Positions 1,905 to 35,779 of a DNA stretch of 36,267 bases are shown here, in pieces. The stretch comes from a virus. The position numbers and the translations under genes were made by a program. Below the pieces are notes generated by a model. That model did no database searches, was not told the DNA's origin, and saw only the letters and a list, made by a program, of their open reading frames with translations. The DNA lies in UHGV virus genome UHGV-0220921. One strand, 5' to 3'. How positions within the stretch are numbered: the stretch's first letter is position 1; each line of letters begins with the position of its first letter.

Positions 1905-1910
1905 TATTTT

Positions 1911-2597: not shown

Positions 2598-2602
2598 TCA
2601 TA

Positions 2603-3671: not shown

Positions 3672-3847
3672 GTGGTAACATCTCCTTAGATGTATTTTGT
3701 ATGTGACTCTATGCTTGCCGGCTGAGTCACTTTTTTATTTGTTGCCATGCCTTTTTCTTGTCGATTTGTTGTTGGCTTAGGATGATTGGTTTGTTATGTC
3801 TCCACCAGCGATTAGCAATTACCGTCCCTATTCTTAGCGCTTCAGCT

Positions 3848-4573
3848 CTATTCATTGTCATCACCAAAAAGTCTCTGTTGTCTGTTCAGTTGATCAATTT
3901 CCATACGGATCGCAGTTTCTGGCAACCACATTTCAATAAATGAAACAGCATCATCGAATCTCTTACGAGGTAACTCGCCATATCTTGGGATTGAAAAGGT
4001 ACGTTTAAATTCAGACCAAAATTTTGAGAATACTTTTTTGCTGATTTCTTCATAAGCTCGGCTTTCTTTACCTCCTAAAACTTCCATAACTTTCATATTT
4101 CCTTTTTGCTTAATTTCAAACTCTTGTTGTCCGCTAATTCGCATAGTATCTTTAAGCATGGAGACATCTTTTTTTACATCTTTCATTTCTTCTAATTGGT
4201 AGATCATCATGTCTTCAATCGTTTGAGGAACAGTATTTTTACGAATGACATCTTCCATCTCGTTGAATGCTTCAATAAATTTGAGTTTGAAACTTATTGC
4301 TTTACTTCCAGTGAATCCCATAGCTAACAAGGAAAATCCATCTCTATTCATGAAAAAAACTCTCCGACTTCTCCCATACGTGTCCGGCTCGTTTCCTTCT
4401 ACAAACATCTTCTCAAAATTGAGCACATCTTCAACATTGGCCGAATTTTCGACCGATCTTTTTACTGATTCAATTGCTTCTAGCACATGCTTATGTTTCT
4501 TTTCGAAAGCTTCAGCTACTTGCAAGCTCGTAGTCACAGCTTCTTTATTTTTCAAAATTACTAATTCTTGCAT
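3848..4573 (-). CDS. phage antirepressor (Rha-family N-terminal domain with ORF6C-type C-terminal domain)
   Basis: N-terminus KEAVTTSLQVAEAFEKKHKHVLEAI is Rha-like. The C-terminal half resembles ORF6C domains. Position is typical, downstream of cro. Confidence 0.7.
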   Translation of the reverse strand: MQELVILKNKEAVTTSLQVAEAFEKKHKHVLEAIESVKRSVENSANVEDVLNFEKMFVEGNEPDTYGRSRRVFFMNRDGFSLLAMGFTGSKAISFKLKFIEAFNEMEDVIRKNTVPQTIEDMMIYQLEEMKDVKKDVSMLKDTMRISGQQEFEIKQKGNMKVMEVLGGKESRAYEEISKKVFSKFWSEFKRTFSIPRYGELPRKRFDDAVSFIEMWLPETAIRMEIDQLNRQQRLFGDDNE

Positions 4574-4602
4574 TTTTATTTCTCTCCTTTTGGTATAATT
4601 TA

Positions 4603-4611
4603 GGTAAAAAC
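4603..4611 (+). promoter_or_regulatory. extended -10 promoter (TGGTATAAT) for the plus-strand DUF2513-like gene
   Basis: The sequence ttggtataat sits immediately upstream of ATG 4614 and 4626. Confidence 0.4.
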
Positions 4612-4613
4612 TG

Positions 4614-5015
4614 GTGGTGTTTATAATGAAATTAAATCAAGATTGCGTACGTGACATACTCCTTCTAATCGAGGATGAGATTTCTTTTGGAAGTTTTCTA
4701 CGATTAGACTTCTTCTTAGCCTCTGAAAAACTATCGAAATATGATAGTGAGACTATAAAATACACACTTGCTAAACTTGATGAAACAGAATTTCTGAAAT
4801 CAAATACTAGATGGGTAAATAATGATTTAGCATCTTTTTCTACTGGAATGATTACGTGGAAAGGTCACAAATTTTTAGATACAATCCGTGATGAAAAAGT
4901 TTGGTCAAATACAAAATCGATTATCTCTAAATTTTCAAGCGTATCTATAAGCATGGTAGAATCAATCGCATCCAATGTAATAACTCAACTTATAGAAAAA
5001 CAGTTACGCGTTTAA
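4614..5015 (+). CDS. DUF2513-like small phage protein, opposite strand to the surrounding early operon (likely start MKLNQDC at 4626)
   Basis: The MKLNQDCVRDILLLIEDE N-terminus resembles DUF2513-type phage proteins (recalled from memory). It has its own extended -10 and converges on 5004..5189. Confidence 0.55.
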   Translation: MVFIMKLNQDCVRDILLLIEDEISFGSFLRLDFFLASEKLSKYDSETIKYTLAKLDETEFLKSNTRWVNNDLASFSTGMITWKGHKFLDTIRDEKVWSNTKSIISKFSSVSISMVESIASNVITQLIEKQLRV

Positions 5016-5189
5016 TTTAAATTCAGTTCTTCCAACCAGTACGTATAAATTGTTTTTTGCTTCAGGAAATTGCTTTATCATTTCATTGAATTCTTCAGTG
5101 TTTAATAAACTTGATGATAGGTTATTAGTATGCTCGACAACAATTGGGATATTGTTTTCTTCATCTTTGTAGAAATAAATAATCTCCAT
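5004..5189 (-). CDS. hypothetical small protein
   Basis: ORF track entry. ATG at 5187-5189 lies directly after the TGA of the upstream small membrane ORF. Confidence 0.4.
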   Translation of the reverse strand: MEIIYFYKDEENNIPIVVEHTNNLSSSLLNTEEFNEMIKQFPEAKNNLYVLVGRTEFKLNA

Positions 5190-5192
5190 TAG

Positions 5193-5363
5193 TCAGTCCC
5201 TCCCGACTGGCTTTTTCGCTCTATACTCAGCTTCATCCAGCCCTATAAAAATCCAAACCATGTAAACGATCGTTCCTATCAACGCTTGTCTATTTCCCCA
5301 AAGTCCTAAAGCGTAGATGATTAGCGGTGCGCTGAATACTAATGTTCGATTAAACTTTCCCAT
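5193..5363 (-). CDS. small two-helix membrane protein (56 aa), absent from the ORF track because it is under 60 aa
   Basis: Manual translation gives MGKFNRTLVFSAPLIIYALGLWGNRQALIGTIVYMVWIFIGLDEAEYRAKKPVGRD. It has a strong RBS, AAAGGAGGAAAAAC, before ATG 5361-5363. Confidence 0.5.
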   Translation of the reverse strand: MGKFNRTLVFSAPLIIYALGLWGNRQALIGTIVYMVWIFIGLDEAEYRAKKPVGRD

Positions 5364-5375
5364 GTTTTTCCTCCT

Positions 5376-5672
5376 TTAAATTTTGTATTTAGCCATCAGT
5401 TCATCGATGTCCTTTTTGTCATATCTCAAAAAGCCATCTATACGAATTTCTTTTAAACCGTGAGCTATTAACTTCTCAAAGCCTTGATCGTTTACACCTC
5501 CCACATATTTTCTAGCTTCGATTTTTTTCAAATATCGTGTTTCTGAAAGATTCTTTTTTGAAAGCTGATTAAGTGCGTCCTTCACAACTTCAACAATTGC
5601 AATTCTCAAACGAGTCAGAAACTCTTCGCTTAGAATATTCATGACTAGCCTCCTATCGAATTCTGTAATCAC
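5376..5672 (-). CDS. hypothetical early protein; possible excisionase-like or DNA-binding fold
   Basis: ORF track entry. It is the second gene of the rightmost minus-strand early operon after cro. Function not recognisable from sequence. Confidence 0.45.
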   Translation of the reverse strand: MITEFDRRLVMNILSEEFLTRLRIAIVEVVKDALNQLSKKNLSETRYLKKIEARKYVGGVNDQGFEKLIAHGLKEIRIDGFLRYDKKDIDELMAKYKI

Positions 5673-5844
5673 GGATGATCTCTAGAATAGTTCTGTTTGC
5701 CTTTGGTCCACTCCAGTGTCCATCAAGAATTTGTTGCATTCGTACACGCGTGTGACCATAAGCAGTAGCCAAATCATCCATAGTTATTCCATTCTCTTTC
5801 ATAAATTCTTTGATCGCCGCACGACCGTTATCCAAGTTTGACAT
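5653..5844 (-). CDS. Cro-like HTH regulator (start trimmed to MSNLDNG)
   Basis: ITMDDLATAYGHTRVRMQQIL is HTH-like. RBS AAGGAAGTGGG precedes ATG 5842-5844. It is divergent from the cI-like gene. Confidence 0.6.
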   Translation of the reverse strand: MSNLDNGRAAIKEFMKENGITMDDLATAYGHTRVRMQQILDGHWSGPKANRTILEIIRDYRIR

Positions 5845-5903
5845 TAACCCACTTCCTTTTTTATAAATTTGTAAGTTAAAGTGATAGAAAAATATAATTT
5901 CCA

Positions 5904-5931
5904 TTGACATTTTTACACTATAGAGTAAAAT
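5904..5931 (+). promoter_or_regulatory. rightward sigmaA-type promoter TTGACA-16-TAAAAT overlapped by a 20-bp palindrome TTTTACACTATAGAGTAAAA (5911-5930); candidate PRM-like promoter with operator
   Basis: Read directly. Further TTTAC/GTAAA half-site-like motifs occur at 6065-6070, 6085-6090 and 6097-6102 in the cro/cI intergenic region. A second candidate extended -10, TGCTATAAG, lies at 5994-6002. Confidence 0.45.
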
Positions 5932-6132
5932 GAATACATAGAGAAATAAGCCTATAACAAAGCCTTTTATTTGCACTTGGTCGCCAAACTTTATGCTATA
6001 AGGTGTGTTTTTAGTTTGCTTTTTTCTATCAAATTAACTTACGGATAAATAATAACTCTATATCGTAAAATTGTAAAGCTATTTTTACTCTTTTTCGTAA
6101 ATTATTTTTTCGTGTTGGAAAGGAACGTTGGA

Positions 6133-6555
6133 ATGACAACATTTGAAAGAATAAAAGAACTAGCGAAAAACAAGAATAAAAACCTTCAACAAGTCGCTAA
6201 AGATTTGAAGTACGGAGAGAATTACTTTTATAGTTTAAATGCAGGAAAACAGCCAACTGCCGAAAAGTTACAAGAAATTGCTGACTACTTCGACGTATCT
6301 GTAGATTATTTGCTAGGACGTACTGAGAAAAAAAGATACTATGATTTAACAGAAAAAGACGAGCGTGATATTCAACAAGAATTACAGTCATTAATCGACG
6401 ATTTATCTAATGCTGATGGAATGGCTTTTTCGAAGAAAGATAATGAAATGAGTGAAGCGACACGTGAAGCTCTCATTATTTCTTTAGAGAATGCTTTGCG
6501 AATAGCTAAAATAGAAGCTAAGAAAAAATACACACCTAAAAAATATCGCGATTAA
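6133..6555 (+). CDS. XRE-family HTH repressor (cI/ImmR-like)
   Basis: N-terminal HTH FERIKELAKNKNKNLQQVAKDLKYGENYFYSLNAGKQPTAEKLQEIADYFDVSVDYLLG. RBS AAGGAA precedes ATG 6133 (the track start at 6112 lacks an RBS). It is followed by ImmA. Confidence 0.85.
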   Translation: MTTFERIKELAKNKNKNLQQVAKDLKYGENYFYSLNAGKQPTAEKLQEIADYFDVSVDYLLGRTEKKRYYDLTEKDERDIQQELQSLIDDLSNADGMAFSKKDNEMSEATREALIISLENALRIAKIEAKKKYTPKKYRD

Positions 6556-6565
6556 AAGGAGTACG

Positions 6566-6994
6566 TTGTTTATGTATTTACCTCAAATTGATAACAAAAT
6601 TAATAAGCTGGTAAAACTATATCAAACACGCAATCCTTTTAGAATTGCACGAGAATTGAAGATACTAGTTTTAGAAGAAGATTTGGGAGAAATTTATGGT
6701 TACTATAGTAAATTCAAACAGATAAAAATGATCCACATAAATTCTAGTTTAGATGAGATGGGAAAATGGATAACTTGTAGTCATGAATTAGGCCACTGTG
6801 TTTTGCATCCGAATGAAAACACACCTATGTTGTCTAAAAAAACGCTAGTATCTGAATTAAAAATTGAAAAAGAAGCAAATTATTTCGCAACTCATCTGAC
6901 TATTGATCCAACTTTAGACGGCTTTGATCATATGACAAAATATGAAAAGCTCGTCTGCTTTGGATTACCAGATGAATTCGATCGTTTCTTGTGA
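6566..6994 (+). CDS. ImmA/IrrE-family zinc metalloprotease (anti-repressor protease)
   Basis: HEXXH motif in CSHELGHCVLHP. Canonical position directly downstream of the XRE repressor. Confidence 0.85.
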   Translation: MFMYLPQIDNKINKLVKLYQTRNPFRIARELKILVLEEDLGEIYGYYSKFKQIKMIHINSSLDEMGKWITCSHELGHCVLHPNENTPMLSKKTLVSELKIEKEANYFATHLTIDPTLDGFDHMTKYEKLVCFGLPDEFDRFL

Positions 6995-7022
6995 ATTATA
7001 ATACAACGTAAGGAGGATATAG

Positions 7023-7223
7023 ATGAAAATAGGAATGAGAAAACCAAGTATAAAAAAATCCATAAGCGCTAGAACCACTGGAAAAGCAAAAAGAAAAGTA
7101 AAAAAAGCAGTTATTCCTGGTTATGGGAAAAAAGGTAGCGGCTGGATTAAAGACCCAAAAAAGGCTGCTTACAATAAAGTTTATAAAAAGACTACGTTTA
7201 GCTTTTGGGACTTATTTAAATAA
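7023..7223 (+). CDS. very lysine-rich small protein (66 aa) in the immunity operon
   Basis: AAGGAGG RBS. MKIGMRKPSIKKSISARTTGKAKRKVKKAVIPGYGKKGSGWIKDPKK is strongly basic. No family recognised. Confidence 0.45.
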   Translation: MKIGMRKPSIKKSISARTTGKAKRKVKKAVIPGYGKKGSGWIKDPKKAAYNKVYKKTTFSFWDLFK

Positions 7224-7308
7224 AAAAAGCCCGTGCAGCAACACGGACTCGAAACCTTATTTCTAAGATTCCCCAATAAAATAATATCATAGAGATAAGG
7301 AGTAGAAA

Positions 7309-7749
7309 ATGAAATTTATTAAATTTGGAATTATTGGATTACTAGTAGTGACAGTTATGGGAGGATGTGGAACATCAACAGCTGAAACAAAGGAATCAAA
7401 AAATTATAGTGAGACAAACAGTACTATCAAAGAAGTAGACTCTGATCAAACCGCTGAGTTTGCAACTATTGCCGAGAAACACATTAAAGAAATATATTCA
7501 ATAGATAATTTGAAGATGGATTTAAAATCTATCAAAGTTACTCAATTTCCTGACGATAAAAATGCAGAAACTGGTGAAGAGTACAAAAATGTCTACAATG
7601 GTACTGGAGATTTTACTTGGCAAGACAAAAAATACAACTTTTCTTTGATTTATTCGAAAAAAGATGCAACTAATTATACCGTCCTATATCTATATAGCAA
7701 TCTAGACCCTAATAAAGGTGTAGATACACCATTAGAAAGCGATCAATAA
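7309..7749 (+). CDS. lipoprotein (signal peptide with lipobox VMGGC), candidate superinfection-exclusion or lysogenic-conversion protein
   Basis: MKFIKFGIIGLLVVTVMGGCGTS. It lies between the repressor/ImmA genes and int, a typical sie position. GGAG RBS. Confidence 0.65.
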   Translation: MKFIKFGIIGLLVVTVMGGCGTSTAETKESKNYSETNSTIKEVDSDQTAEFATIAEKHIKEIYSIDNLKMDLKSIKVTQFPDDKNAETGEEYKNVYNGTGDFTWQDKKYNFSLIYSKKDATNYTVLYLYSNLDPNKGVDTPLESDQ

Positions 7750-7886
7750 AAAAGCACATTTACCGCCCGACCAAGAACGCAAATGTGCAAAGAGCTACGG
7801 TAAAGTAGGTCTATTTGTTGTACCCTATTTTACCATCTCGAAATCCGCTGTACAACCGAACAAACGTACGAAAGGAAAGATAAAAG

Positions 7887-9092
7887 ATGGCAAAAAAAGA
7901 AATTGATAAACGAATTAAAAAGCACTTAACAAAAAAAGGAGAAGAAAAATATCAGTTTAGTCTGTACTTAGGAGTTGATCCGCTAACAGGAAAAAAAAGA
8001 AAAACAACGAGACGAGGTTTTAGTACGCCATTAGCCGCTGAGAGAGCTTTAAAAAGATTGGAGGCAGATATACAGGAAAAAGGACTGCAAGCTTCTACAG
8101 CTCAAAAGAGCAAGAAATTCGAATATGTTTACGGCTTATGGTTTGAAAATTATAAAAAGACAGTTAAAGAAAGCACTTGGTCCTCCACCAAACAAATTTT
8201 TGACACACACATCTTAAAAGTGTTTGGAGATAAGTTCATTGACAAAATAGACGTTTTTTTCTGTCAAGAAGCAGTAAACACTTGGTCCGATAGCCATCCT
8301 AAAATTTTTAAGAAAATAAAAAATTACACATCTAATGTTTTTGATTACGCTGCTTCTTTACAAATTATAACTAGCAATCCTATGAAATTAGTTTCTATTC
8401 CACGTGGAGAAGCTCTAGATATCGAAGATAAAAATATCGAATTTTATACTAAAGAAGAATTAATCGAATTTTTAGAAGCAATAAGAAACGATGATGATGA
8501 AAGATATTTATTCTTTTCCCTATTGGCTTTTACAGGTATAAGAAAAGGAGAAGCTTTTGCACTGACCTGGTCGGATATTGATTTTAAGAGCAAAACACTC
8601 AATATTAATAAAACTGTAACAAGAGGTTATCAAGGGAGATTGATCGTAAATACTCCTAAATCAAAATCTGGAAAAAGAAAAATTTATCTGGACAATGATT
8701 TGATCAGTTTATTGAGAAAGTATTATACAAAAAACAAAACGATCGTTACAATCCAAAGCGAAAACTTAATTTTTCACCATGATGGTCTTCTCTATAACCC
8801 TACAGTTTCACGTTCGTGGCTTAATGTCATATATAAGCATCATCCAGAATTAACTAAAAGAATCACTACTCATGGTTTTCGACATACTCATGCCTCTCTC
8901 CTTTTTGAATCAGGAGCTTCTTTAAAAGATGTTCAGGAACGTTTAGGGCATGCAGACATTCAAACTACTTCAAATATTTACACTCATGTAACTGAAACTC
9001 AAAACAAAAAAGTTATCAATAATTTTGTAGCATTTATGAAGAATAGTACTCAGGGGGAGTCAAAAGGGGAGTCAAAAAATATTTTAGGTTAA
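7887..9092 (+). CDS. int: tyrosine site-specific integrase
   Basis: C-terminal catalytic region HGFRHTHASLLFESGASLKDVQERLGHADIQTTSNIYTHV carries the R..HxxR..Y signature. It is followed by the attP-like region. Confidence 0.95.
   Translation: MAKKEIDKRIKKHLTKKGEEKYQFSLYLGVDPLTGKKRKTTRRGFSTPLAAERALKRLEADIQEKGLQASTAQKSKKFEYVYGLWFENYKKTVKESTWSSTKQIFDTHILKVFGDKFIDKIDVFFCQEAVNTWSDSHPKIFKKIKNYTSNVFDYAASLQIITSNPMKLVSIPRGEALDIEDKNIEFYTKEELIEFLEAIRNDDDERYLFFSLLAFTGIRKGEAFALTWSDIDFKSKTLNINKTVTRGYQGRLIVNTPKSKSGKRKIYLDNDLISLLRKYYTKNKTIVTIQSENLIFHHDGLLYNPTVSRSWLNVIYKHHPELTKRITTHGFRHTHASLLFESGASLKDVQERLGHADIQTTSNIYTHVTETQNKKVINNFVAFMKNSTQGESKGESKNILG
9054..9077. repeat. tandem 12-mer GGGGAGTCAAAA x2 at the int 3' end (encodes GESKGESK); candidate integrase arm-type site
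   Basis: The exact 17-mer AGTCAAAAGGGGAGTCA at 9058-9074 recurs at 9301-9317 in direct orientation, flanking the tRNA-like core. Confidence 0.45.
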
Positions 9093-9143
9093 ATTACAAC
9101 AAAAAAAGACACGATCGAAATCGTGTCTAATCGTTGATATATA

Positions 9144-9200
9144 AGGAAGGTACGGGGATTGAACCCGTGCGCCGGTATTAGCCGGTTCGCCGGATTTCGA
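9144..9200 (-). other. tRNA 3'-end-like fragment (T-arm ACGGG-TTCAATC-CCCGT plus acceptor 3' strand ACCTTCC, no matching 5' acceptor); putative attP core
   Basis: The reverse complement of 9145-9168 reads GGAAGG/TACGGGGATTGAACCCGT. The GC-rich CCGGCG repeats are unlike the AT-rich genome. Phages integrating into tRNA genes carry the tRNA 3' portion in attP. Confidence 0.4.
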
Positions 9201-9295
9201 GAATAGGGTTTAAAGCTGATTTTAAGTGTTTTTCGCTTATTATCAGCTTTTTATTATCTAAAAAAACAACTTTTAGAGACATCCATATACTGCTT

Positions 9296-9355: not shown

Positions 9356-9429
9356 TGTACCCTGTAGGACTCGAACCTACGACCGGACGGTTATGAGCCG
9401 TCTGCTATGACCAACTGAGCTAAGGGTAC
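9356..9429 (-). tRNA. tRNA with CAT anticodon (elongator tRNA-Met or tRNA-Ile2 type), 74 nt, CCA not encoded
   Basis: Manual fold of the minus strand: acceptor GTACCCT/AGGGTAC (7 bp), D-loop with GG, anticodon stem GACGG/CCGTC with loop CTCATAA, variable loop CGGTC, T-arm GTAGG-TTCGAGT-CCTAC, discriminator A. The paired 1-72 position argues against an initiator. Confidence 0.8.
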
Positions 9430-10566: not shown

Positions 10567-10590
10567 GCCCCTCATCGAGGGGCTTTTTTT
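10567..10590 (+). terminator. intrinsic terminator (GCCCCTC-ATC-GAGGGGC followed by TTTTTTT)
   Basis: Hairpin plus T7 tract directly after the GNAT stop. It is a near-duplicate of 9584-9611. Confidence 0.7.
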
Positions 10591-11605
10591 ATCGTTGCGG
10601 AATATTTAAATACCAACGCTTGTCATGAAAATCTTGCGCTCCACCTTTAGTGTTCCCTTTTGGATCATTCGTTGCCCGCATCATGACGTATACTTTCTTA
10701 TTAGGAAAATTACGCATATTGAAAGATACGTGGTATCCGACATTTCCAGAAGTATTATAAGCTTGATTTACATCTGGTCTATATACTCCGTCAGCTTTTA
10801 CTCTAGCTAATTCTTTCCCAGTATTGTAATCCATAATGAAAATATACTCGTATTTATAGTTAGCGATGTGCCAACCAGCTACATGCAAGTTTGCGTTTTC
10901 GATTTCTCCGAACTGATCAATGTGGGCGTAATTCGTTCCATCTGTCAGTGTAGGGTTTGCTGCACCTGCTCTAGTTGGATCAATGACTGGTTTATCATCT
11001 GAAGTTGTCGGATTTTCATCGGTAAATCCATGAGCTAAATCATAGGCTAATTTTTCTTTACTTACGCCCATTTCAGAAAAATAACCGTAAGGATCTGTAT
11101 GATCGCCCCAAATATTTTGTGTTACCCATAAATGCGATTTGATTCCTGGTTGGTTATAAGGCGTGTCTAACGTAAGTGGAATACCATATTTCTGAGCAGA
11201 ATCTCTTGCCAATTCAACGTATGCCTTGTAGTTTTTCTCAAACGTTGCTTTATCATGTGTGTGTTGTAACTCAATCTGCACAGAACTGTTGGCATTAGCA
11301 TATGAACCAGCGCCATACTGCACATAACCAGGTTGACCGACTTGGTAAACGATTCCGCCATCACCCACAATGTAAGCAGTGTAAGCACTAGTCCATGAAC
11401 GTTGCATATACTGCGCTTCATTGCGTCCTGTTGCTGTTTCATTAGCCGTTTCATGCAGTAAAATGTACTGATTATTTGCTACTTGTGAGCTACCTTCATT
11501 TGCGCCCAAATTAAATTCATTGTTAATCGTGTAGGCAAATCCATTTACTGGCAACAAAAAAAGAGCCATTAAAAGGCTCAATGACAATACTATTTTCTTT
11601 TTCAT
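10589..11605 (-). CDS. endolysin: N-acetylmuramoyl-L-alanine amidase (Amidase_2/PGRP-type) with N-terminal Sec signal peptide and C-terminal wall-binding region
   Basis: N-terminus MKKKIVLSLSLLMALFLLPVNGFAYT is a signal-peptide-like sequence. The ILLHETANE amidase motif is present. It is the last gene of the late operon, directly after the holin region. RBS AGGAGG. Confidence 0.85.
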   Translation of the reverse strand: MKKKIVLSLSLLMALFLLPVNGFAYTINNEFNLGANEGSSQVANNQYILLHETANETATGRNEAQYMQRSWTSAYTAYIVGDGGIVYQVGQPGYVQYGAGSYANANSSVQIELQHTHDKATFEKNYKAYVELARDSAQKYGIPLTLDTPYNQPGIKSHLWVTQNIWGDHTDPYGYFSEMGVSKEKLAYDLAHGFTDENPTTSDDKPVIDPTRAGAANPTLTDGTNYAHIDQFGEIENANLHVAGWHIANYKYEYIFIMDYNTGKELARVKADGVYRPDVNQAYNTSGNVGYHVSFNMRNFPNKKVYVMMRATNDPKGNTKGGAQDFHDKRWYLNIPQR

Positions 11606-11608
11606 TTG

Positions 11609-11813
11609 TTTCCTCCTATTTTTTCAAATTATAAGCCGACACACCAGTGATAACGCCTAAAAATGTTGCTACTGCATTGATAGTGAGTACTGCCATATCT
11701 GTTCCATTCCATCCATATGCTTTTCCTAACATGGCTACTAAAGCAGATGCAGCTGGCAATACTGTTAAAACTGTCCATTTAATGACTTGATAATACTTAT
11801 CTGGTAAAATCGT
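11609..11813 (-). other. 68-codon in-frame extension downstream of the holin-like ORF's TGA, encoding two TM helices (class II holin-like); no canonical start codon
   Basis: Same-frame translation directly after TGA 11814-11816 gives TILPDKYYQVIKWTVLTVLPAASALVAMLGKAYGWNGTDMAVLTINAVATFLGVITGVSAYNLKK. Its TAG overlaps the lysin RBS AAAATAGGAGGAAACAAATG. Confidence 0.4.
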
Positions 11814-12032
11814 TCACTCACCCCCTCTCACATCTTGAATATCATGCTCAACTACTTTCATTCGGCCTTCTAATTGATAGGTTCTTTCTACCAAATTATT
11901 ATGTTTTTCAACTTTTTTCTCTAGTTGATCAATTCGATAAATTGTCAATTTATTAGAGATAACAATTCCTGAAAAAGTTCCCACCAATGAACCAGCTAAG
12001 CTAAAAATTGAAATGACCGCATCTATACTCAT
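11814..12032 (-). CDS. holin-like membrane protein (N-terminal TM helix with coiled-coil tail; XhlA-like), ends in TGA
   Basis: MSIDAVISIFSLAGSLVGTFSGIVISNKL is a TM segment followed by a charged coiled-coil. It sits immediately upstream of the endolysin. Confidence 0.55.
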   Translation of the reverse strand: MSIDAVISIFSLAGSLVGTFSGIVISNKLTIYRIDQLEKKVEKHNNLVERTYQLEGRMKVVEHDIQDVRGGE

Positions 12033-12049
12033 AATTCACCATCTTTTCT

Positions 12050-12085
12050 ACAAAATAAAAAGACGCATCACTTAAGATGCGCTCT
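12050..12085 (-). terminator. intrinsic-terminator-like hairpin (GAGCGCATC-TTAAGT-GATGCGTC then TTTTTATTTTG) enclosing the XkdX stop codon
   Basis: Read on the minus strand. It lies between the tail-fiber/XkdX genes and the lysis cassette. Confidence 0.45.
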
Positions 12086-12209
12086 TATCTTTATTAATGA
12101 TTTTATCTGCTTCTTCGTCCGTAATACATAATGGAACGAATTGTCGAACTTGGTCAGCAGTAAAACAATTCCAGTCATACATCATCTTGATATCATCATA
12201 AGAATACAT
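12072..12209 (-). CDS. XkdX-family small phage protein (45 aa)
   Basis: Manual translation gives MYSYDDIKMMYDWNCFTADQVRQFVPLCITDEEADKIINKDKSAS. RBS GGAGG lies 9 nt upstream. The W...T.DQV...V....IT.EE pattern matches the XkdX family (from memory). Not in the ORF track because it is under 60 aa. Confidence 0.55.
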   Translation of the reverse strand: MYSYDDIKMMYDWNCFTADQVRQFVPLCITDEEADKIINKDKSAS

Positions 12210-12210
12210 A

Positions 12211-12618
12211 TTATTTTCCTCCGTCAAGTTGTTCTTTGATAGTAGCAATGGCTTTTGTGTTTTGAAGGGATGTCAGCATGGTTTTCGAATTAATTTGTGC
12301 TAGTGATTCTGCTTTTGTAGTAAGCTCTTCATTTGCTTTTTTCAATGCAGCATTATCTACCTGTAAACCTATAGATAAATTTTCTAGTAGTTCCAATTTT
12401 TTAGAATAATCTTGTGTAACTGCTTCTTCCCACTTATTTTCAGTGAAGTTAAAAAATTGCGACTGTTGTCTTCTTCCGAAACCTTCATCCGTTTCATCTT
12501 CCTTCTTTTCAAACAAAATAGGTGGAACTTCGACAAATGGTAAAGTTGTTGGAAAGTTATCTTCTACTTGATGTTCTTCATATCCCATTGGATACAACAC
12601 TTTATAAATTGTTTTCAT
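12211..12618 (-). CDS. hypothetical tail-fiber-associated protein (coiled-coil C-terminus)
   Basis: ORF track entry. Positioned between the fiber genes and XkdX, as XkdW/XkdX-type pairs are in Gram-positive phages. Confidence 0.45.
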   Translation of the reverse strand: MKTIYKVLYPMGYEEHQVEDNFPTTLPFVEVPPILFEKKEDETDEGFGRRQQSQFFNFTENKWEEAVTQDYSKKLELLENLSIGLQVDNAALKKANEELTTKAESLAQINSKTMLTSLQNTKAIATIKEQLDGGK

Positions 12619-13541: not shown

Positions 13542-14330
13542 CTATACCTCCCCTACTTTTTCAAACGATACATTTGGTATTTTGGAATCTGTATAAGCTT
13601 GTGCATTTTGATAAGCTTCACTCATTTTTTGATCAACATATTCTTGAGTGACGCCGCCACCTTCTCCACCACCTGTTGCAGAGATTACTCCTGTGTTTGA
13701 AATACTGATATTAGCTCCGGCAGTATAGTTGAATTGCTTATCGGCCGATAAAACATCATCAGTCATCGTTAAACCTTCACCGACACGAATACCACCTTTT
13801 ACAAATTCGGAGGCAGTGGGTAAAACGTAAAAACCAGTCACTTCTGCATTTATTTTTCCATCTTCATCAATAGTGATGTTTTCTCCTGCAGTATAGTTTT
13901 TCAGTGAATCGAGTTTTTCTTTTAACTCCAGCGAAAAATTGACATCAGATTGTCTGACTGCAGAGACTTTTCCTGTCTCATCAATCGTCAATAATTCACC
14001 AATTTTTATGCCACCCAAACGGTCGATAGTGGCAACTGGCAACACGTAGTCACCTTCTCCACTGTTTAAAATTTTTTGATACATTTCTGACGTGATAATG
14101 CCGTCATCTTCTTCACTTGCATAGGGTAATTCTGTGAGAACATTCTCTAATCCCAAATCTTCTTTAGTAATGACGACGGCTCCAATTTTGCCATTAACAG
14201 ATAAAACTGTTGCTTCTCCTGCTATTATTTCTTCTAACCCAAGAACTGCGGAAGCATGTGTGATTGGAAAGAATTGGCGTTGTACACCTGTTTTTTCATC
14301 CGTTTCCATCATTCGTTTAGTTTTAGCCAT
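13542..14330 (-). CDS. tail fiber protein (Gly-rich GGGEGGG segment)
   Basis: ORF track entry. The C-terminus ends ...NVSFEKVGEV, the same motif as its neighbours. Confidence 0.5.
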   Translation of the reverse strand: MAKTKRMMETDEKTGVQRQFFPITHASAVLGLEEIIAGEATVLSVNGKIGAVVITKEDLGLENVLTELPYASEEDDGIITSEMYQKILNSGEGDYVLPVATIDRLGGIKIGELLTIDETGKVSAVRQSDVNFSLELKEKLDSLKNYTAGENITIDEDGKINAEVTGFYVLPTASEFVKGGIRVGEGLTMTDDVLSADKQFNYTAGANISISNTGVISATGGGEGGGVTQEYVDQKMSEAYQNAQAYTDSKIPNVSFEKVGEV

Positions 14331-15238
14331 TAGATCACCCCAACTTTCTCAAGAGTGAACACATTTTGCTTTGGATCATCAACGGTTGCGATGATCAAGG
14401 CTCCTTCTTCAATCGGGAATTCTACAGTTCCAACTTTTTCGACTTCGTGATTATCTGAAAAGAGATCATCCTGCAAAATATCAGTCACTTCAATCTCACC
14501 GTATTCAATCGTGAAAAGTGTTGCTCGTAATTTCTGATATAGATAATCCATATCTGCCAGCAAGCGCTCTGAAATAGACGCATGACGAACTCCTTGAATA
14601 TCAACACGTGCATCCATTAATTCGGCTAACATTACTCCACCTGGATCGATAGACTTCAAAATATCTTTGATTGATTCAAACCATTTTAAATAATCGGTTT
14701 CTTGTCCTTCTCTCCATGCCTCAAATGTATTTTGTTGGTCTTGTCGCCATTGTTCAAATTCCTTTTTACGTGCATTCATCCAATCTGTGAAGTCACCTTT
14801 GTTTTCATTGATAAAAGCTGACATATCCGCAATTAAATCTTCGACTGTCTGCCAATACGATCCCATTTCACCCTCTGTTTTTGAGACAGCTTTAATCACA
14901 AAATAAGAGAAATCTTGCGTCGTAGCAATTAACTCATCATCTTTATAAATGATAAAATCTGCTGTTTGGCGATGTAGGCATTGCATCGAATATTGATCAA
15001 ATGTGTACTGAATTTTTCCTTTTTTTGCATCAATGACTTTAGTACCTAATTGAACTGGGTATTTGTCTCCGACAACTGATTCAAAATAGACTTTACAACC
15101 AGTTAGATCATAGGGCATTCCATTTTCAGTGATGGTTGCTTCCATAACCTCTGAATTCTTATTACCTTGCCGTACCTGAATCATACCGACATAGTTATAA
15201 GGTTCAGTTGTGCTGAGTACTACGTTCCACTTTGCCAT
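14330..15238 (-). CDS. baseplate or upper tail fiber protein (BppU-like position)
   Basis: ORF track entry. The C-terminus ends ...FTLEKVGVI and has an internal EVEKVGTVEF. It follows the Tal/CHAP genes. Confidence 0.45.
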   Translation of the reverse strand: MAKWNVVLSTTEPYNYVGMIQVRQGNKNSEVMEATITENGMPYDLTGCKVYFESVVGDKYPVQLGTKVIDAKKGKIQYTFDQYSMQCLHRQTADFIIYKDDELIATTQDFSYFVIKAVSKTEGEMGSYWQTVEDLIADMSAFINENKGDFTDWMNARKKEFEQWRQDQQNTFEAWREGQETDYLKWFESIKDILKSIDPGGVMLAELMDARVDIQGVRHASISERLLADMDYLYQKLRATLFTIEYGEIEVTDILQDDLFSDNHEVEKVGTVEFPIEEGALIIATVDDPKQNVFTLEKVGVI

Positions 15239-15770
15239 TAATTACCACTCCTTTCTCAAAATCAGGTGGGATACAAATAGAAGCTATCTGACCAGATCCG
15301 AAGAATTCACGATCATATTCCGCCACAATTCCACCTGATTCTGCATTTTGTTCATAGGTTTGAATACGCCCATTTTCTAGACCTTTGATTACACCTGTGT
15401 GGCCGTAATATTCATGGCTTTCAAATGTATCACTGATTTTTGCGTTTCTTTCCCAATTGATAATTGAGCCAACAACTAGTTGGTCATACTCGGGATGAAC
15501 AATAACCGTCCATAAATACAATGCCCATGAGTAGGCTCGTCCAATTTCCGCAGCGGAAAACACATTGCCGTGACGTACTTTGATCTCGTATTGTGTACCT
15601 GCCCCCATGTCAGGACCAATCATCACACCGGCATATTCCGCAGATAATGCATAACATTGATGGTTTCCGATAGGTTGATTCAACAAACTTTTCAAATGAT
15701 TTAATCCTTTTTCTTCGATCACAAAATCACCTCTATTTCTTCGCTCTGGCGAGACAAACATCGCCGCCAT
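15204..15770 (-). CDS. CHAP-domain peptidoglycan hydrolase (virion-associated)
   Basis: Cys in NHQCYALSAEYAG and His in YYGHTGVI at CHAP spacing. Confidence 0.55.
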   Translation of the reverse strand: MAAMFVSPERRNRGDFVIEEKGLNHLKSLLNQPIGNHQCYALSAEYAGVMIGPDMGAGTQYEIKVRHGNVFSAAEIGRAYSWALYLWTVIVHPEYDQLVVGSIINWERNAKISDTFESHEYYGHTGVIKGLENGRIQTYEQNAESGGIVAEYDREFFGSGQIASICIPPDFEKGVVINGKVERSTQHN

Positions 15771-18555
15771 TTAATAAATACCCGAAGGACCAATCGACGC
15801 GACCGATACCAACACCATTGGAATTCATGCCACCCATTTCAACAATAGAAGTGCTATATCCCTTCCAATCCTCTGCTAAAATAGCGGTATGTCCATCATT
15901 ACCAGCACCTGCACCTAAATTAACAATGATGATATCTCCGGCTTTCGCTTCATTTGGGGATATTTCAGTAAGATACTGACGTGCTCCTCTTGCATCTGCA
16001 GACATTGAGCCTGTATACCACAGAGTTCCACGTGTTGCGGTTTTATATCCCGCTTTTGTCAAAGCTAACCAAACAAAAGAAGAACAGTCAGCATACCCAT
16101 TACGATCAGGATTCTCGACGCTACCAAAATTCCAACGTAACGGTTGCGAGTAATGGAAATAACCCATCAAGCTTTTGGCTGTACTGAGAATACTGCCAGC
16201 AGATGGGACTTGAAGATCTTTGAATCTGTTATACCAATTAACTGCCCATCCTTGTCTTTCTGGATGAGTTGTGGCTGGTCTTTCATAGTTTCGTTCAAAT
16301 GTATAAGCAGCAGCTGCTGGATCAGTCATTGCTTTAAATCCAGAAACACTTGCCGGTTGAACAATTCCTAACCATTGACCGTTATACATTGTCCAATCTA
16401 ATAACTTTCCTTGAGCTGACATTGTTCGATAATCTTCTGTAATTCCTGCAGCTCTCATCAGGTTTTGAACATAAGTCCTGCCATCCCATGTTGCTGGAGG
16501 AACCAAAGGATATGCTGAACCATCCCATTGAACGATTCCATAGGCTGGACCGCCAACTTGTGCAATATCTGGATTCATTGCAGCACCGGCTTCTCCTTGA
16601 ACATTTCCAAGGATTCCAGCAATGGATGCTTTGGAATAACCTCTAGAAAGAAGCATAACCCATAGCTCCCAAGCAAATTTGTCCGCTTGACTGGTAACCT
16701 CTGGTGGGTACATGCCATTCCAACTTCCCCCGCCGTTATTCCCACTTCCCCCTTGTCCAGGAAATACTTCTTGCCCATTAATTGTAAGTTTTCCGCGTAT
16801 ATTGACATTTTTCATAAATTCCGCATCACCAAAGGCATTTAGCTTTTCCTGTAGGTTTAAACTTCCAAATAATATAGAAGTTCCATTCCCAAGTATTACC
16901 CAACCTTTTCCTTCTTTTGGTGAAATGAGAATATATTTTCCATCGCCGTTTGTTCGAATGACTAACGAATTATCTTCTAACGGTGTAGGAGTGGATGCGC
17001 CAGGAAAAGGATTGCCTGCAGAATCAGTCGTACCAATTGTGCCGATAGATTCCTTGGTGTTCCAGAACTCCATTCCTTTCTTGGTTAGTTCCATGATTTT
17101 TTTATTATCATTCCAAATTTGTAACGTACCTTTGACAATTTTTAGCACATCACCTAGATCATTAATTGAGCTTTCAAGAACTTCTGCATTAATAATCCCA
17201 ACTTTAATGAAATCAGCTACGATTTCACCCTTCGACGTCATTGCGATACCGAATGGGCCATTTACTCCATCGTCTGAATAACCTAAGCCATTTAAATTCC
17301 AACGCCACACACGCTTCGCATTCGCTACATTGGAAGTATCCATAATAAGAATCTCTGATGGAGCTTTTTCTGGGCGAAAAACGACATGCCCACCAGAATT
17401 ACCAGTGATCCATGCCGTCGCATTCAACACATTTTGAACTAACGTTTCTGTTCGATTGTCGATTTTCTTTTTCAATTCTTGTGCTTGAGTATTTACTGCC
17501 GAAGTGTACAGTGATAAATCATTACCTAAAACAATATCCTTATATTTCCCAAGCGTTGGGAAATAAGTGTATTCGACCATACGCTCTTTTATCTCGATAT
17601 CTAGCTCTTTCGCCCTAACATGAGCGACATCACCAAAGTGTAAAGACGCTAGCTCTTGATACATCTCACCGTATTCGAGTGTGTGTTCCAACGCCACCAT
17701 GCTGACTGTATGAGTAGCTTTTGGCTCATGGATACGATCATTGTCAAATAAGGTTTTGCCCCATTTGATCAATTCATCAACTGTTTTACAATCTCCGTTT
17801 TCACGCTTGGCAATACGTCGATTCTCGTTGGTTACTCCATCAATTTCTAAATAACCATATTCGATAGGTTCTTTGTCTTCATCATAATCGTTATCAGGAA
17901 CCCCGCCAACCAAATACAAACTATTGACAATTGATTCTTCATCAATTTCTTCTTCGATTGCTTCTAAATTGATGCCAAAATCAATCCGAAAACCATTATC
18001 TGATCCAATCTGTTTTACCAGTTTCAAATCATAGTTATCCATATCAAGTTCCGCGCTAGTCACGCCAGTCAAATTTTGATTACCGTTATTTGAACCGATA
18101 ATCGCTTCAACTGGTGCGACTTGTCTTGCTGTAAATTGGTGCGTTGTACCTACATTCGACAGATAGTTGAATTTTTGATCAAATGCCAAACTGTTTTTAA
18201 GATTGGTCATGATTTGAGAACCGTTGCCGTTATCCGTGAATGACTTAACGATAAAGTTTTTATTGGCCATAAAACCAATATGTCTGGCTGTCACAGAAAC
18301 GGATGTCAAATTCTTTTTGATATTGTAAATTTCGAAGTATTGCCATGATCCATCTGGTACCTTCGCTTTTATGAAATTTCCTTTTTTTAAGTAAGACCGA
18401 TACTGACCGCCTCGTGAATAGTTACCATAAAAACGATATTGACCATTTAATACACGATTGATTTCTGGCAAATCTTCCCAGTCAACCAACGACGCTCCGT
18501 TAACACTCAAATCATCTGGCATTTTTTTGTAAGCATAAATAAATTCTTGTGTCAC
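15733..18555 (-). CDS. tail-associated lysin (Tal): phage tail endopeptidase N-terminal region with lysozyme-like and NlpC/P60 domains
   Basis: 940 aa, directly after Dit. Contains a GNVQGEAGAAMNP glycosidase-like segment and the NlpC/P60 motif YADCSSFVWLALTKAGYK...GHTAIL. Confidence 0.75.
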   Translation of the reverse strand: MTQEFIYAYKKMPDDLSVNGASLVDWEDLPEINRVLNGQYRFYGNYSRGGQYRSYLKKGNFIKAKVPDGSWQYFEIYNIKKNLTSVSVTARHIGFMANKNFIVKSFTDNGNGSQIMTNLKNSLAFDQKFNYLSNVGTTHQFTARQVAPVEAIIGSNNGNQNLTGVTSAELDMDNYDLKLVKQIGSDNGFRIDFGINLEAIEEEIDEESIVNSLYLVGGVPDNDYDEDKEPIEYGYLEIDGVTNENRRIAKRENGDCKTVDELIKWGKTLFDNDRIHEPKATHTVSMVALEHTLEYGEMYQELASLHFGDVAHVRAKELDIEIKERMVEYTYFPTLGKYKDIVLGNDLSLYTSAVNTQAQELKKKIDNRTETLVQNVLNATAWITGNSGGHVVFRPEKAPSEILIMDTSNVANAKRVWRWNLNGLGYSDDGVNGPFGIAMTSKGEIVADFIKVGIINAEVLESSINDLGDVLKIVKGTLQIWNDNKKIMELTKKGMEFWNTKESIGTIGTTDSAGNPFPGASTPTPLEDNSLVIRTNGDGKYILISPKEGKGWVILGNGTSILFGSLNLQEKLNAFGDAEFMKNVNIRGKLTINGQEVFPGQGGSGNNGGGSWNGMYPPEVTSQADKFAWELWVMLLSRGYSKASIAGILGNVQGEAGAAMNPDIAQVGGPAYGIVQWDGSAYPLVPPATWDGRTYVQNLMRAAGITEDYRTMSAQGKLLDWTMYNGQWLGIVQPASVSGFKAMTDPAAAAYTFERNYERPATTHPERQGWAVNWYNRFKDLQVPSAGSILSTAKSLMGYFHYSQPLRWNFGSVENPDRNGYADCSSFVWLALTKAGYKTATRGTLWYTGSMSADARGARQYLTEISPNEAKAGDIIIVNLGAGAGNDGHTAILAEDWKGYSTSIVEMGGMNSNGVGIGRVDWSFGYLLNGGDVCLARAKK

Positions 18556-35560: not shown

Positions 35561-35779
35561 CTATCTCCTTGTCCACAATAAAAACCACATCAACTCTTCT
35601 GTCGTACCGTTTAAATAAAGATTTATTTCTGCACCAATCGCAACTAAAATTCCGACAACAAACAAAATAATCCCTACTGCTGTATATTTTTTGCCTTTTG
35701 CACTCTCGTAAATGAGGTATGCTCCTAACATCGCTAGTAAGCCGCCAATTACACACCAAAATATTGTTAGGCTGATCAT
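35561..35779 (-). CDS. small membrane protein (two TM helices)
   Basis: Hydrophobic MISLTIFWCVIGGLLAMLGAYLIY...ILFVVGILVAIGAEI. ATGA overlap with the MazG stop. Confidence 0.5.
   Translation of the reverse strand: MISLTIFWCVIGGLLAMLGAYLIYESAKGKKYTAVGIILFVVGILVAIGAEINLYLNGTTEELMWFLLWTRR

What the first reader, a model, noticed from the sequence alone, without database searches (positions are those of the whole stretch)
11609..12032. Holin locus split by an in-frame TGA: coiled-coil/TM ORF followed by a start-less two-TM holin-like ORF; possible stop-codon readthrough or reinitiation timer
Seen in sequence: the 72-aa ORF 11814..12032 (one TM helix plus coiled-coil) ends in TGA. The next 68 codons in the same frame encode a typical class II holin-like core (two TM helices, basic C-terminus). 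This frame has no ATG or GTG before the first helix. The only candidate starts are a TTG inside helix 1 or ATT. The frame ends at a TAG embedded in the lysin RBS. Established knowledge: UGA is the leakiest stop codon in bacteria. Holin/antiholin pairs are often made from one reading frame by alternative N-termini. Inference: the holin may be produced by UGA readthrough, which would give a 141-aa three-TM product, or by termination-reinitiation. Either would be an unusual lysis-timing device. A sequencing error or an inactivating mutation is the null explanation.
Basis: partly seen in the sequence, partly recalled or inferred. Interest (0 to 1): 0.6.

Follow-up and report, generated by a model that had tools for sequence, protein, structure and literature searches.

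The report
Phage holin with mutated start codon
The "start-less" holin is an ordinary Enterococcus phage holin gene whose ATG start codon has mutated to ACG in one young phage lineage; it is not a holin split by a stop codon, and the mutation is real and heritable, so the holin is probably made at a low level or not at all.

Summary
A 72-aa transmembrane plus coiled-coil ORF ends in TGA. A Dp-1-family holin frame follows in the same frame with no ATG, GTG or TTG before helix 1. Its TAG lies inside the lysin ribosome-binding site.

The locus is not a split holin. It holds two separate genes of a known Enterococcus lysis cassette: XkdX, an XhlA-like membrane protein, a Dp-1 holin, and an amidase with a signal peptide.

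All 24 relatives first fetched read ...GGGGGTGAGTGA-ATG-ATT...; 12 of them have the identical upstream gene. The window reads ACG where they read ATG, a single T-to-C change.

It is not a sequencing error. The same ACG occurs in six other assemblies, and NCBI already annotates it as a 64-aa holin starting at the next codon, ATT. Carriers have E. lactis-like and E. faecium-like flanks. The window is a complete, otherwise intact 36,267-bp circular phage genome.

The upstream stop is in frame with the holin only in this clade, no suppressor tRNA is present, and TGA is an ordinary stop here. Programmed readthrough therefore has no comparative support.

Most likely this is a weakened allele, translated poorly from ACG or AUU with help from a 12-bp Shine-Dalgarno pairing. 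Interest is low.

The parts
12072..12209 (-). XkdX-family gene (45 aa), the first gene of the conserved block that ends in the lysis cassette
   Evidence: Pfam PF09693 Phage_XkdX, E 1.1e-11. NCBIfam TIGR01669 gives E 2.9e-5 at 23.7 bits, below its 28.2-bit cut-off. The same position is occupied in relatives.
11814..12032 (-). 72-aa membrane protein with an N-terminal transmembrane helix and a coiled coil. It occupies the slot that XhlA holds in related cassettes. Its stop is TGA at 11814-11816.
   Evidence: ORF. PHROG 1863, E 3e-15. The exact protein is in 245 collection blocks. The family alignment A1 has invariant G14, G18, G22, R33, L37, E38, H44 and N45. Ten of 31 family members hit PF10779 XhlA weakly; this protein does not.
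11818..11829 (-). Extended Shine-Dalgarno sequence GAGAGGGGGUGA for the holin, lying inside the 3' end of the 72-aa gene
   Evidence: RNA duplexfold against the Firmicutes 16S 3' tail gives 12 paired bases and -20.7 kcal/mol, the strongest of the cassette types compared. It is identical in the ATG relatives. The spacer from GGGGG is 7 nt to ACG and 10 nt to ATT.
11811..11813 (-). ACG codon at the position of the ancestral ATG start of the holin. The T-to-C change is at 11812.
   Evidence: All 24 relatives L001-L024 have ATG here, as do L044 and L045. ACG is present in L025-L027 and L124-L126. The base is unpaired in the predicted mRNA fold, and the fold is the same for ATG and ACG.
11808..11810 (-). 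ATT codon, the second holin codon, which NCBI annotation uses as the start in genomes carrying the ACG allele
   Evidence: P0156 is the 64-aa 'phage holin [Enterococcus faecium]', MLPDKYY..., accessions MBG7974787.1, MBK1320584.1 and HFQ3896713.1. Its contigs carry ACG-ATT.
11616..11813 (-). Dp-1-family holin reading frame: 65 sense codons plus TAG (11616-11618), otherwise intact
   Evidence: PF16938 at 67.4 bits. PHROG 881 holin. Within the holin frame it differs from the closest ATG allele (L020) only at 11812 and at one synonymous site, 11802.
10589..11605 (-). Endolysin (338 aa, Amidase_2) with an N-terminal signal-peptide-like segment, MKKKIVLSLSLLMALFLLPVNGFA (about 11534-11605). Its GGAGG ribosome-binding site overlaps the holin TAG.
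   Evidence: PF01510, E 5.7e-14. PHROG endolysin profiles begin at residues 21-24 of the protein. Named N-acetylmuramoyl-L-alanine amidase, MBG7974786.1. The signal peptide was read by inspection only.

Best explanation
The window carries a conventional Enterococcus temperate-siphovirus lysis cassette on the minus strand. Its genes are XkdX, a 72-aa XhlA-like membrane and coiled-coil protein, a Dp-1-family holin, and an Amidase_2 endolysin with its own signal peptide.

In the ancestral arrangement the upstream gene's TGA is followed directly by the holin ATG (TGA-ATG). This is a normal stop-start junction served by a strong Shine-Dalgarno sequence.

In this phage lineage one T-to-C substitution turned that ATG into ACG. 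Shown here:
- The change is a real, heritable and recent allele.
- The rest of the holin gene and of the phage is intact.
- Near-identical prophages with the allele occur in at least two different host backgrounds.

Inferred: the allele is hypomorphic, meaning it reduces function rather than abolishing it. Ribosomes held by the 12-bp Shine-Dalgarno pairing, or terminating at the adjacent UGA, would start inefficiently at ACG (original position, 7-nt spacer) or at the next codon AUU (10-nt spacer). The product would be a holin with a normal or one-residue-shorter N-terminus, at roughly 1-10% of the normal rate. Low-level UGA readthrough may add a minor 138-aa fusion protein.

The expected phenotype is delayed or weakened triggering of lysis. 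The endolysin probably reaches the wall through Sec on its own. The holin would then be needed only to collapse the membrane potential.
For: The substitution:
- All 24 relatives L001-L024 have ATG exactly where the window has ACG. Twelve of them (L006-L017) have the same ...GGGGGTGAGTGA upstream context.
- Within the holin frame the closest ATG allele differs only at 11812 and one synonymous site.

A real allele, not an error:
- ACG is present in ENA ERZ1743335 and ERZ1743345 and in NCBI GCA_964191955.1.
- It is also in GCA_015770255.1, GCA_043688255.1 and GCA_016534725.1.
- L026 carries it on a background with 20 other SNPs upstream of the lysis cassette (14474-12251).
- NCBI annotates a 64-aa holin from the ATT codon.

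The phage is intact and mobile:
- The window length equals the prophage unit length computed from ERZ1743335 NODE_48, 36,267 bp. The window also spans the attachment site, within 9103-9201.
- Terminase, portal, protease, capsid, tape-measure and tail proteins match their Pfam families.
- The host flank on the integrase side is 99.85% identical to E. lactis CCM 8412 and 91.8% to eight other Enterococcus genomes.
- The flank on the lysis side differs by 5.2% between two ACG carriers, and one of them has an extra CBAH gene.

Plausibility of weak initiation:
- The Shine-Dalgarno pairing is 12 bp at -20.7 kcal/mol.
- The mutation does not change the predicted mRNA structure.
- In E. coli, AUU, AUA, AUC and CUG start translation at 1-2% of AUG. 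Other codons, including ACG, start at 0.1-1%, and ACG gave a Met N-terminus by mass spectrometry (10.1101/063800).
- In S. aureus, AUU and AUA starts with extended Shine-Dalgarno sequences give about 10% of AUG (PMC13009471).

Expected phenotype:
- Lowering holin translation delays lysis in phage lambda (10.1101/2025.05.14.654169).
Against: - There are no expression or lysis data.
- The efficiency of ACG or AUU starts in Enterococcus is unknown.
- The lineage is so young that its lysis cassette is identical in all six carriers. Purifying selection on the holin after the mutation therefore cannot be tested.
- The cross-host distribution could come from homologous recombination between resident related prophages rather than from infection. 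The same integrase is listed in 707 blocks of the collection.
- The immediate ATG ancestor with the same mosaic (72-aa gene plus this holin allele) was not found. The seven contigs with the exact 65-aa ATG holin all have a different upstream gene.
- The signal peptide of the lysin was judged by eye only.
Confidence: 0.55

Rival explanations
1. Null allele. The ATG-to-ACG change effectively silences the holin. The prophage is then lysis-defective, which could benefit its host. Alternatively it lyses slowly through the Sec-exported amidase together with the 72-aa membrane protein, or through spontaneous loss of membrane potential.
For: - Gene callers leave the holin uncalled in the ENA contigs and in GCA_964191955.1.
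- ACG belongs to the 0.1-1% class of start codons in E. coli.
- The lysin has its own export signal.
- No second holin-like ORF lies in the late region.
- XhlA-type proteins are reported as needed for lysis in PBSX (PMC10630273).
- The allele is young, so a defective gene would not yet have decayed.
Against: - Near-identical ACG prophages sit in host backgrounds that differ by about 5% next to the attachment site.
- The window is an excised circular genome. Both points fit a phage that still completes its cycle.
- The strong Shine-Dalgarno sequence and the adjacent AUU make zero expression unlikely.
Confidence: 0.3
2. Readthrough. The functional holin activity comes mainly from UGA readthrough, with Trp inserted, producing a 138-aa fusion of the 72-aa protein and the holin with three transmembrane helices.
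For: - TGA is in frame and is followed by A.
- UGA is the leakiest stop codon and is read mostly as Trp (PMC11126739).
- By the positive-inside rule the fusion would have a compatible topology. This is an inference from the sequence.
- A natural in-frame fusion of the two genes exists in another clade: P0001, 140 aa, on 8 contigs.
Against: - Relatives with the same in-frame TGA all keep ATG, so readthrough is not needed there.
- The frame relation is not conserved across 80 viral relatives.
- P0001 differs from its out-of-frame relatives by one extra A in a homopolymer (A7 to A8), and it keeps the internal ATG and Shine-Dalgarno sequence.
- The 138-aa database entry P0148, with W at the TGA position, sits on a 583-bp contig and still has M after the W. 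It looks like a gene call made with genetic code 4.
- The phage has no suppressor tRNA. Its only tRNA has a CAU anticodon.
- TGA ends 15 of 45 phage ORFs, and TGA followed by A ends 7 of them.
- No Rfam recoding element was found.
Confidence: 0.07
3. The C at 11812 is a sequencing or assembly error, and the gene really starts with ATG.
For: It is a single-base difference from all 24 relatives first fetched.
Against: The same base is found in six other assemblies from at least two archives and several projects. One of them is on a diverged background. It was also annotated independently by NCBI in three genomes.
Confidence: 0.01

Closest known systems
Enterococcus phage lysis cassettes of the type XhlA-like protein + Phage_holin_Dp1 + endolysin (PMC10630273), modelled on Bacillus PBSX xhlA-xhlB-xlyA
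   Same: The gene order is the same: XkdX, a small membrane and coiled-coil protein, the holin, then the endolysin. The holin is PF16938 and the lysin is Amidase_2. Modules are shuffled between phages in the same mosaic way.
   Different: The holin start codon is ACG instead of ATG. The accessory protein has its transmembrane helix at the N-terminus and does not itself reach the XhlA Pfam model.
Genes with conserved non-AUG starts that limit expression (E. coli infC and pcnB with AUU; S. aureus infC, cvfC1 and ccpN with AUA or AUU plus extended Shine-Dalgarno sequences)
   Same: A strong, extended Shine-Dalgarno sequence lies close to a near-cognate codon, and the expected output is reduced.
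   Different: In those genes the non-AUG start is conserved across species. Here it is confined to one very young lineage, and all 24 relatives first fetched use ATG. ACG itself has no confirmed natural bacterial example that I know of; this rests on my own knowledge.
Phage lambda S holin translational control of lysis timing
   Same: The rate of holin translation initiation should set lysis time, and weaker initiation should delay lysis.
   Different: There is no dual-start motif and no antiholin. The reduction comes from a point mutation, not from a conserved regulatory structure. The holin family and the host are unrelated.
Sec-exported endolysins (Lys44 of Oenococcus phage fOg44; LysTP712 of Lactococcus TP712)
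   Same: The N-terminal segment has a positively charged start, a hydrophobic core and a small-residue cleavage motif, ahead of the catalytic domain. The holin gene is retained, presumably to collapse the membrane potential.
   Different: The catalytic domain differs (Amidase_2, against the GH25 domain of LysTP712). Export and processing have not been tested here.

Membership tests
Phage_holin_Dp1 (PF16938) holins | Match to the family profile above the curated threshold | tested here: met
   67.4 bits against a cut-off of 25, covering profile positions 2-63 of 63. PHROG 881 holin, E 5e-35.
Phage_holin_Dp1 (PF16938) holins | Small protein with two hydrophobic helices, encoded immediately upstream of the endolysin | tested here: met
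   65 codons. Hydrophobic stretches are VIKWTVLTVLPAASALVAMLG and MAVLTINAVATFLGVITGV. The lysin starts 10 nt after the TAG.
Phage_holin_Dp1 (PF16938) holins | Own canonical translation start | tested here: not met
   ACG stands where all 24 relatives first fetched have ATG. This is a defect of the allele and does not remove it from the homologous family.
Phage_holin_Dp1 (PF16938) holins | Membrane permeabilisation that triggers lysis | not testable with these tools
   Needs expression and lysis assays.
XhlA family (PF10779) | Match to the XhlA profile | tested here: not met
   The 72-aa protein has no XhlA hit. Ten of 31 homologues hit it weakly, best E 4.3e-6.
XhlA family (PF10779) | Small membrane-anchored coiled-coil protein encoded directly upstream of the holin in an XkdX-XhlA-holin-lysin block | tested here: met
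   It occupies the same slot as the bona fide XhlA genes of L001, L018 and L021. The transmembrane helix is N-terminal here, but C-terminal in the XhlA of phages 4995_1 and 4995_2 (L001, L005).
Programmed stop-codon readthrough | In-frame stop and a start-less downstream ORF conserved among relatives | tested here: not met
   All 24 relatives first fetched have ATG after the stop. The frame and overlap type vary across 80 viral loci.
Programmed stop-codon readthrough | A readthrough-promoting element or a suppressor tRNA | tested here: not met
   The only tRNA has a CAU anticodon. No Rfam element other than that tRNA was found. The predicted local fold is weak, and the Shine-Dalgarno-to-start stretch is about 60% unpaired on average. 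TGA is an ordinary stop in this phage.
Dual-start holin/antiholin (lambda S type) | Two start codons a few codons apart in one frame, conserved among relatives | tested here: not met
   Relatives have a single ATG followed by ILPDKYY.
Regulatory non-AUG start codons (infC type) | Non-AUG start conserved across orthologues | tested here: not met
   It is found only in one near-clonal lineage.
Regulatory non-AUG start codons (infC type) | Strong or extended Shine-Dalgarno sequence at suitable spacing | tested here: met
   A 12-bp pairing at -20.7 kcal/mol, with spacers of 7 nt (ACG) and 10 nt (ATT). The Shine-Dalgarno sequence is inherited unchanged from the ATG relatives.
Sec-exported endolysins | Cleavable N-terminal signal peptide | tested here: inconclusive
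   MKKK, a 14-residue hydrophobic core and G-F-A were seen by inspection. Endolysin profiles start at residues 21-24. No signal-peptide predictor was available.

The most novel reading that the evidence does not exclude
The only holin of a circulating temperate phage found in both E. lactis-like and E. faecium-like hosts is translated without any canonical start codon. Translation would start at ACG or AUU, driven by a 12-bp Shine-Dalgarno pairing and stop-start coupling to the upstream gene, with a minor UGA-readthrough fusion product. On this reading the strongly reduced holin output has been selected as a delayed-lysis or low-cost-prophage strategy rather than being a neutral or deleterious accident.
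Probability: 0.12. Interest if true: 0.5.

Novelty: new member of a known kind. Interest (0 to 1): 0.22.

Why it matters
Mostly it matters as a caution. A holin that seems split by a stop codon and lacks a start is a one-base start-codon mutant of a standard two-gene arrangement. Comparison with relatives settles this at once.

There is modest positive value. The allele is a natural knock-down of a holin in an otherwise intact phage, and it occurs in both E. lactis-like and E. faecium-like hosts. Paired with its ATG relatives, it gives a ready-made experiment on two questions: how much holin a Gram-positive phage with a Sec-exported endolysin really needs, and how well ACG or AUU start translation in Enterococcus.

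It also shows that gene callers skip this holin, while NCBI's pipeline rescues it with an ATT start.

Tried and rejected
- Sequencing error. Rejected: the allele is in six other assemblies.
- Unique lesion in a decaying prophage. Rejected: the structural genes are intact, the genome is a complete circle, and the allele occurs in two host backgrounds.
- Start at the TTG at 11759. Rejected: it lies inside helix 1, has no Shine-Dalgarno sequence upstream, and no such 47-aa product is on record.
- Conserved in-frame design. Rejected: across 80 viral relatives the junctions are ATGA or TAATG overlaps, upstream GTG starts or spacers, in all three frames.
- Natural fusions as support for readthrough.
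  - P0001 is explained by one extra A in a homopolymer.
  - P0024 and P0036 look like frameshift artefacts, because the XhlA C-terminal helix is replaced by unrelated sequence.
  - P0148 looks like a genetic-code-4 gene call on a 583-bp contig.
- Phage-encoded suppressor tRNA or recoding RNA. None found.
- An mRNA-structure effect of the T-to-C change. None: the predicted fold and accessibility are the same.
- A second holin elsewhere in the late region. None seen in a hydrophobicity scan.
- Pattern scans that found nothing: the junction with either base was absent from IMG/VR and from the GTDB species representatives. Four JGI metagenome hits were all ATG.
- Tracing the ENA study by accession in the literature library. 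Nothing found.

Full report
**Observation.** On the minus strand a 72-aa ORF (12032->11814) ends in TGA (11816-11814). The same frame continues ACG ATT TTA CCA GAT AAG... for 65 codons to TAG (11618-11616). That TAG overlaps the GGAGG of the lysin ribosome-binding site, and the lysin ATG is at 11605. There is no ATG, GTG or TTG before the TTG at 11759, inside the first hydrophobic helix. The only slip is the count: 65 sense codons rather than 68.

**What the genes are.**
- The downstream frame is a Dp-1-family holin: PF16938 at 67.4 bits against a cut-off of 25, and PHROG 881 'holin'.
- The next gene is an Amidase_2 endolysin of 338 aa. Its first 24 residues (MKKKIVLSLSLLMALFLLPVNGFA) look like a Sec signal peptide, and endolysin profiles only begin at residues 21-24.
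- Upstream lies an XkdX gene.
- The 72-aa protein belongs to a conserved family of 72-83-aa proteins with an N-terminal transmembrane helix and the motif YRIEQLEKKVEKHNNLVERTY. Ten of 31 members hit the XhlA Pfam model weakly; this one does not.
- In related Enterococcus phages the same slot holds a true XhlA gene or a 97-aa membrane and coiled-coil protein.
- The block XhlA-like + Dp-1 holin + endolysin is a described cassette type of Enterococcus phages, modelled on PBSX xhlA-xhlB-xlyA (PMC10630273).

**The key comparison.** I fetched 24 related loci:
- five phage records;
- eight NCBI genomes carrying the identical 72-aa gene;
- four metagenome contigs found with a junction pattern that allowed any base at the position in question;
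- seven contigs encoding the identical 65-aa holin.

Every one reads ATG-ATT-TTA-CC at the holin start. The 12 with the same upstream gene read ...GGGGGTGAGTGA ATG ATT..., where the window reads ...GGGGGTGAGTGA ACG ATT.... The window therefore differs by one T-to-C change at 11812, in the start codon. Within the holin frame the closest ATG allele (L020) differs only at that base and at one synonymous site.

**Not an error and not unique.**
- A look-up of the window's exact lysin found 22 contigs. The three distinct places shown (ENA ERZ1743335 and ERZ1743345, NCBI GCA_964191955.1) all carry ACG, and their gene callers left the holin uncalled.
- The holin's protein cluster contains a 64-aa 'phage holin [Enterococcus faecium]', MLPDKYY..., under three NCBI accessions. 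One of them, MBG7974787.1, is numbered next to the exact lysin, MBG7974786.1. NCBI's pipeline therefore starts this allele at the ATT codon.
- Its three contigs (GCA_015770255.1, GCA_043688255.1, GCA_016534725.1) also carry ACG.
- L026 has the allele on a background with 20 other SNPs between 14474 and 12251, 17 of them within 13704-14474.

**The phage.**
- In ERZ1743335 NODE_48 the prophage is integrated between a TetR gene and asnB.
- Its integrase side is 100% identical to window 1887-9201. Its lysis side is 100% identical from 14605 down to 9187, then imperfectly similar down to 9103.
- The unit length computed from the contig coordinates is 36,267 bp, exactly the window length. The window spans the junction, so it is a complete circular, excised genome.
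- Terminase, portal, protease, capsid, tape-measure, tail and baseplate proteins match their Pfam families.
- The integrase-side host flank is 99.85% identical to E. lactis CCM 8412 and 91.8% to eight other Enterococcus genomes.
- The asnB-side flank of another ACG carrier (L124) is only 94.8% identical to that of ERZ1743335 and has an extra CBAH gene. The prophage parts of the two are 99.8-100% identical.

This suggests that the ACG phage has lysogenised at least two host lineages. Recombination between resident related prophages is an alternative, because the same integrase is very widespread.

**Testing readthrough and fusion.**
- Across 80 IMG/VR relatives of the 72-aa family, the junction to the next gene is an ATGA overlap, a TAATG overlap, an upstream GTG or a spacer, in all three frames. 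TGA-ATG adjacency in frame occurs only in the window's own clade.
- A search with the conceptual 138-aa readthrough product found a 140-aa natural fusion, P0001, on 8 contigs. It differs from its out-of-frame relatives (...GCA AAA AAA TGA, with the ATG overlapping the stop) by one extra A in the homopolymer. It keeps the internal ATG and Shine-Dalgarno sequence.
- Two 'XhlA+Dp1' proteins look like frameshift artefacts. A 138-aa entry with W at the TGA position is on a 583-bp contig and still has M after the W, which points to a genetic-code-4 gene call.
- The phage encodes one tRNA, with a CAU anticodon and G1-C72. Its homologue in phage 4995_1 is annotated tRNA-Ile. It is not a suppressor.
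- Rfam finds nothing else.
- TGA ends 15 of 45 ORFs, seven of them as TGA followed by A.

Programmed readthrough therefore has no comparative support. Basal UGA leakiness, up to a few percent in E. coli and mostly read as Trp (PMC11126739), could still give a little fusion protein.

**Most likely mechanism.**
- The Shine-Dalgarno sequence GAGAGGGGGUGA (11829-11818) can pair over 12 bases with the 16S 3' tail at -20.7 kcal/mol. This is stronger than in the other cassette types, which give -17.9 and -12.9.
- ACG lies 7 nt and AUU 10 nt after GGGGG.
- The mutation leaves the predicted mRNA fold unchanged.
- In E. coli, AUU-class codons start translation at 1-2% of AUG. Other codons, including ACG, start at 0.1-1%, and ACG gave a Met N-terminus (10.1101/063800).
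- In S. aureus, AUU and AUA with extended Shine-Dalgarno sequences reach about 10% of AUG (PMC13009471).
- Ribosomes terminating at the adjacent UGA could add to local initiation. This is an inference.
- Reduced holin translation delays lysis in phage lambda.
- Secreted endolysins still need the membrane potential to be collapsed (PMC6832245).

I therefore read the allele as a hypomorph that delays or weakens lysis. I put this at about 0.55, against about 0.3 for a true null and about 0.07 for readthrough as the main source of holin.

**Limits.** The lineage is too young for any test of selection: its lysis cassette is identical in all carriers. No expression data exist.

**Verdict.** This is a known kind of lysis cassette in an uncharacterised Enterococcus temperate phage. 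No close record exists in the phage collection. The cassette carries a real start-codon point mutation. The 'split holin / readthrough timer' reading is not supported as a designed feature. Interest is low, about 0.2. The remaining value is as a natural holin knock-down allele for experiments.

Noticed in passing
window 9356-9429 (-): The phage encodes a tRNA with a CAU anticodon. ARAGORN calls it tRNA-Met and Rfam scores it at 64.9 bits. It has G1-C72 and C4-G69/C5-G68, so it is not an initiator tRNA. The tRNA in the corresponding position of phage 4995_1 is annotated tRNA-Ile, so it probably reads AUA. The 85-nt island around it is conserved in many related prophages whose flanking DNA differs.
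   Followed up: partly
window 9103-9201: Attachment region. The integrase-side junction (L028) matches the window up to 9201. The lysis-side junction (L025) matches perfectly down to 9187 and imperfectly down to 9103. The segment GGGTTCAATCCCCGTACCTTCC resembles the 3' end of a tRNA-like gene. The prophage unit length equals the window length, so the window is a whole circular genome.
   Followed up: partly
L027 4552-4717 (ENA ERZ1743345 NODE_1, 36,417 bp): This contig is 100% identical to the window until position 10055, inside the acetyltransferase gene. It then ends in 166 nt of GC-rich sequence that matches neither the window nor any other locus fetched by then. This could be an insertion or a chimeric assembly end.
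   Followed up: partly
L042/L043 2501-2923; protein P0001: A natural single ORF fuses a 72-aa-type protein to the Dp-1 holin (...ELKGAKK-MILPDK...). It is on 8 contigs from at least two sequencing runs. It differs from its relatives by A8 instead of A7 in a homopolymer at the ATGA overlap. This may be a real slippage variant or a homopolymer error.
   Followed up: partly
L020, L024; proteins P0003, P0138, P0139: Recurrent mini-prophages keep only the repressor and regulatory genes, XkdX, the membrane and coiled-coil gene, the holin and the lysin; L020 also shows the acetyltransferase and integrase before its end. A 211-aa protein joins a pRha-type N-terminus in frame to the 72-aa protein and occurs on dozens of contigs. 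These are deletion derivatives that retain the lysis cassette.
   Followed up: no
window 10589-12211 compared with L006-L024: The lysis region is a mosaic at gene boundaries. XkdX is 100% identical to the L019 type, the 72-aa gene is 100% identical to the L006-L014 type, and the holin is closest to the L018-L022 and L024 type (L023 a little less). The lysin is 98.2% identical to L020. The mutated start codon sits at the boundary between the 72-aa module and the holin module, and no ATG version of this particular combination was found.
   Followed up: partly
phage records OR846730.1, OR848098.1, PQ554527.1: Records named 'Listeria phage LM 4-11-1', 'Listeria phage LM 4-14-1' and 'Acinetobacter phage D2SVT' carry this Enterococcus-type holin and lysin at 88-94% identity. 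D2SVT is almost the same locus as Enterococcus phage vB_ElaS_B1578. The host labels look doubtful.
   Followed up: no
window 15733-18555 (-): The 940-aa tail protein combines Prophage_tail, Phage_lysozyme2 and CHAP/Amidase_5 domains. It is a virion-associated cell-wall hydrolase, separate from the endolysin.
   Followed up: no
window 35561-35779 (-) and 36087-36263 (-): Two small ORFs of 72 and 58 aa, each with two predicted transmembrane helices, lie outside the lysis cassette at the high-coordinate end of the window. Their function is unknown and they are not in a holin position.
   Followed up: no
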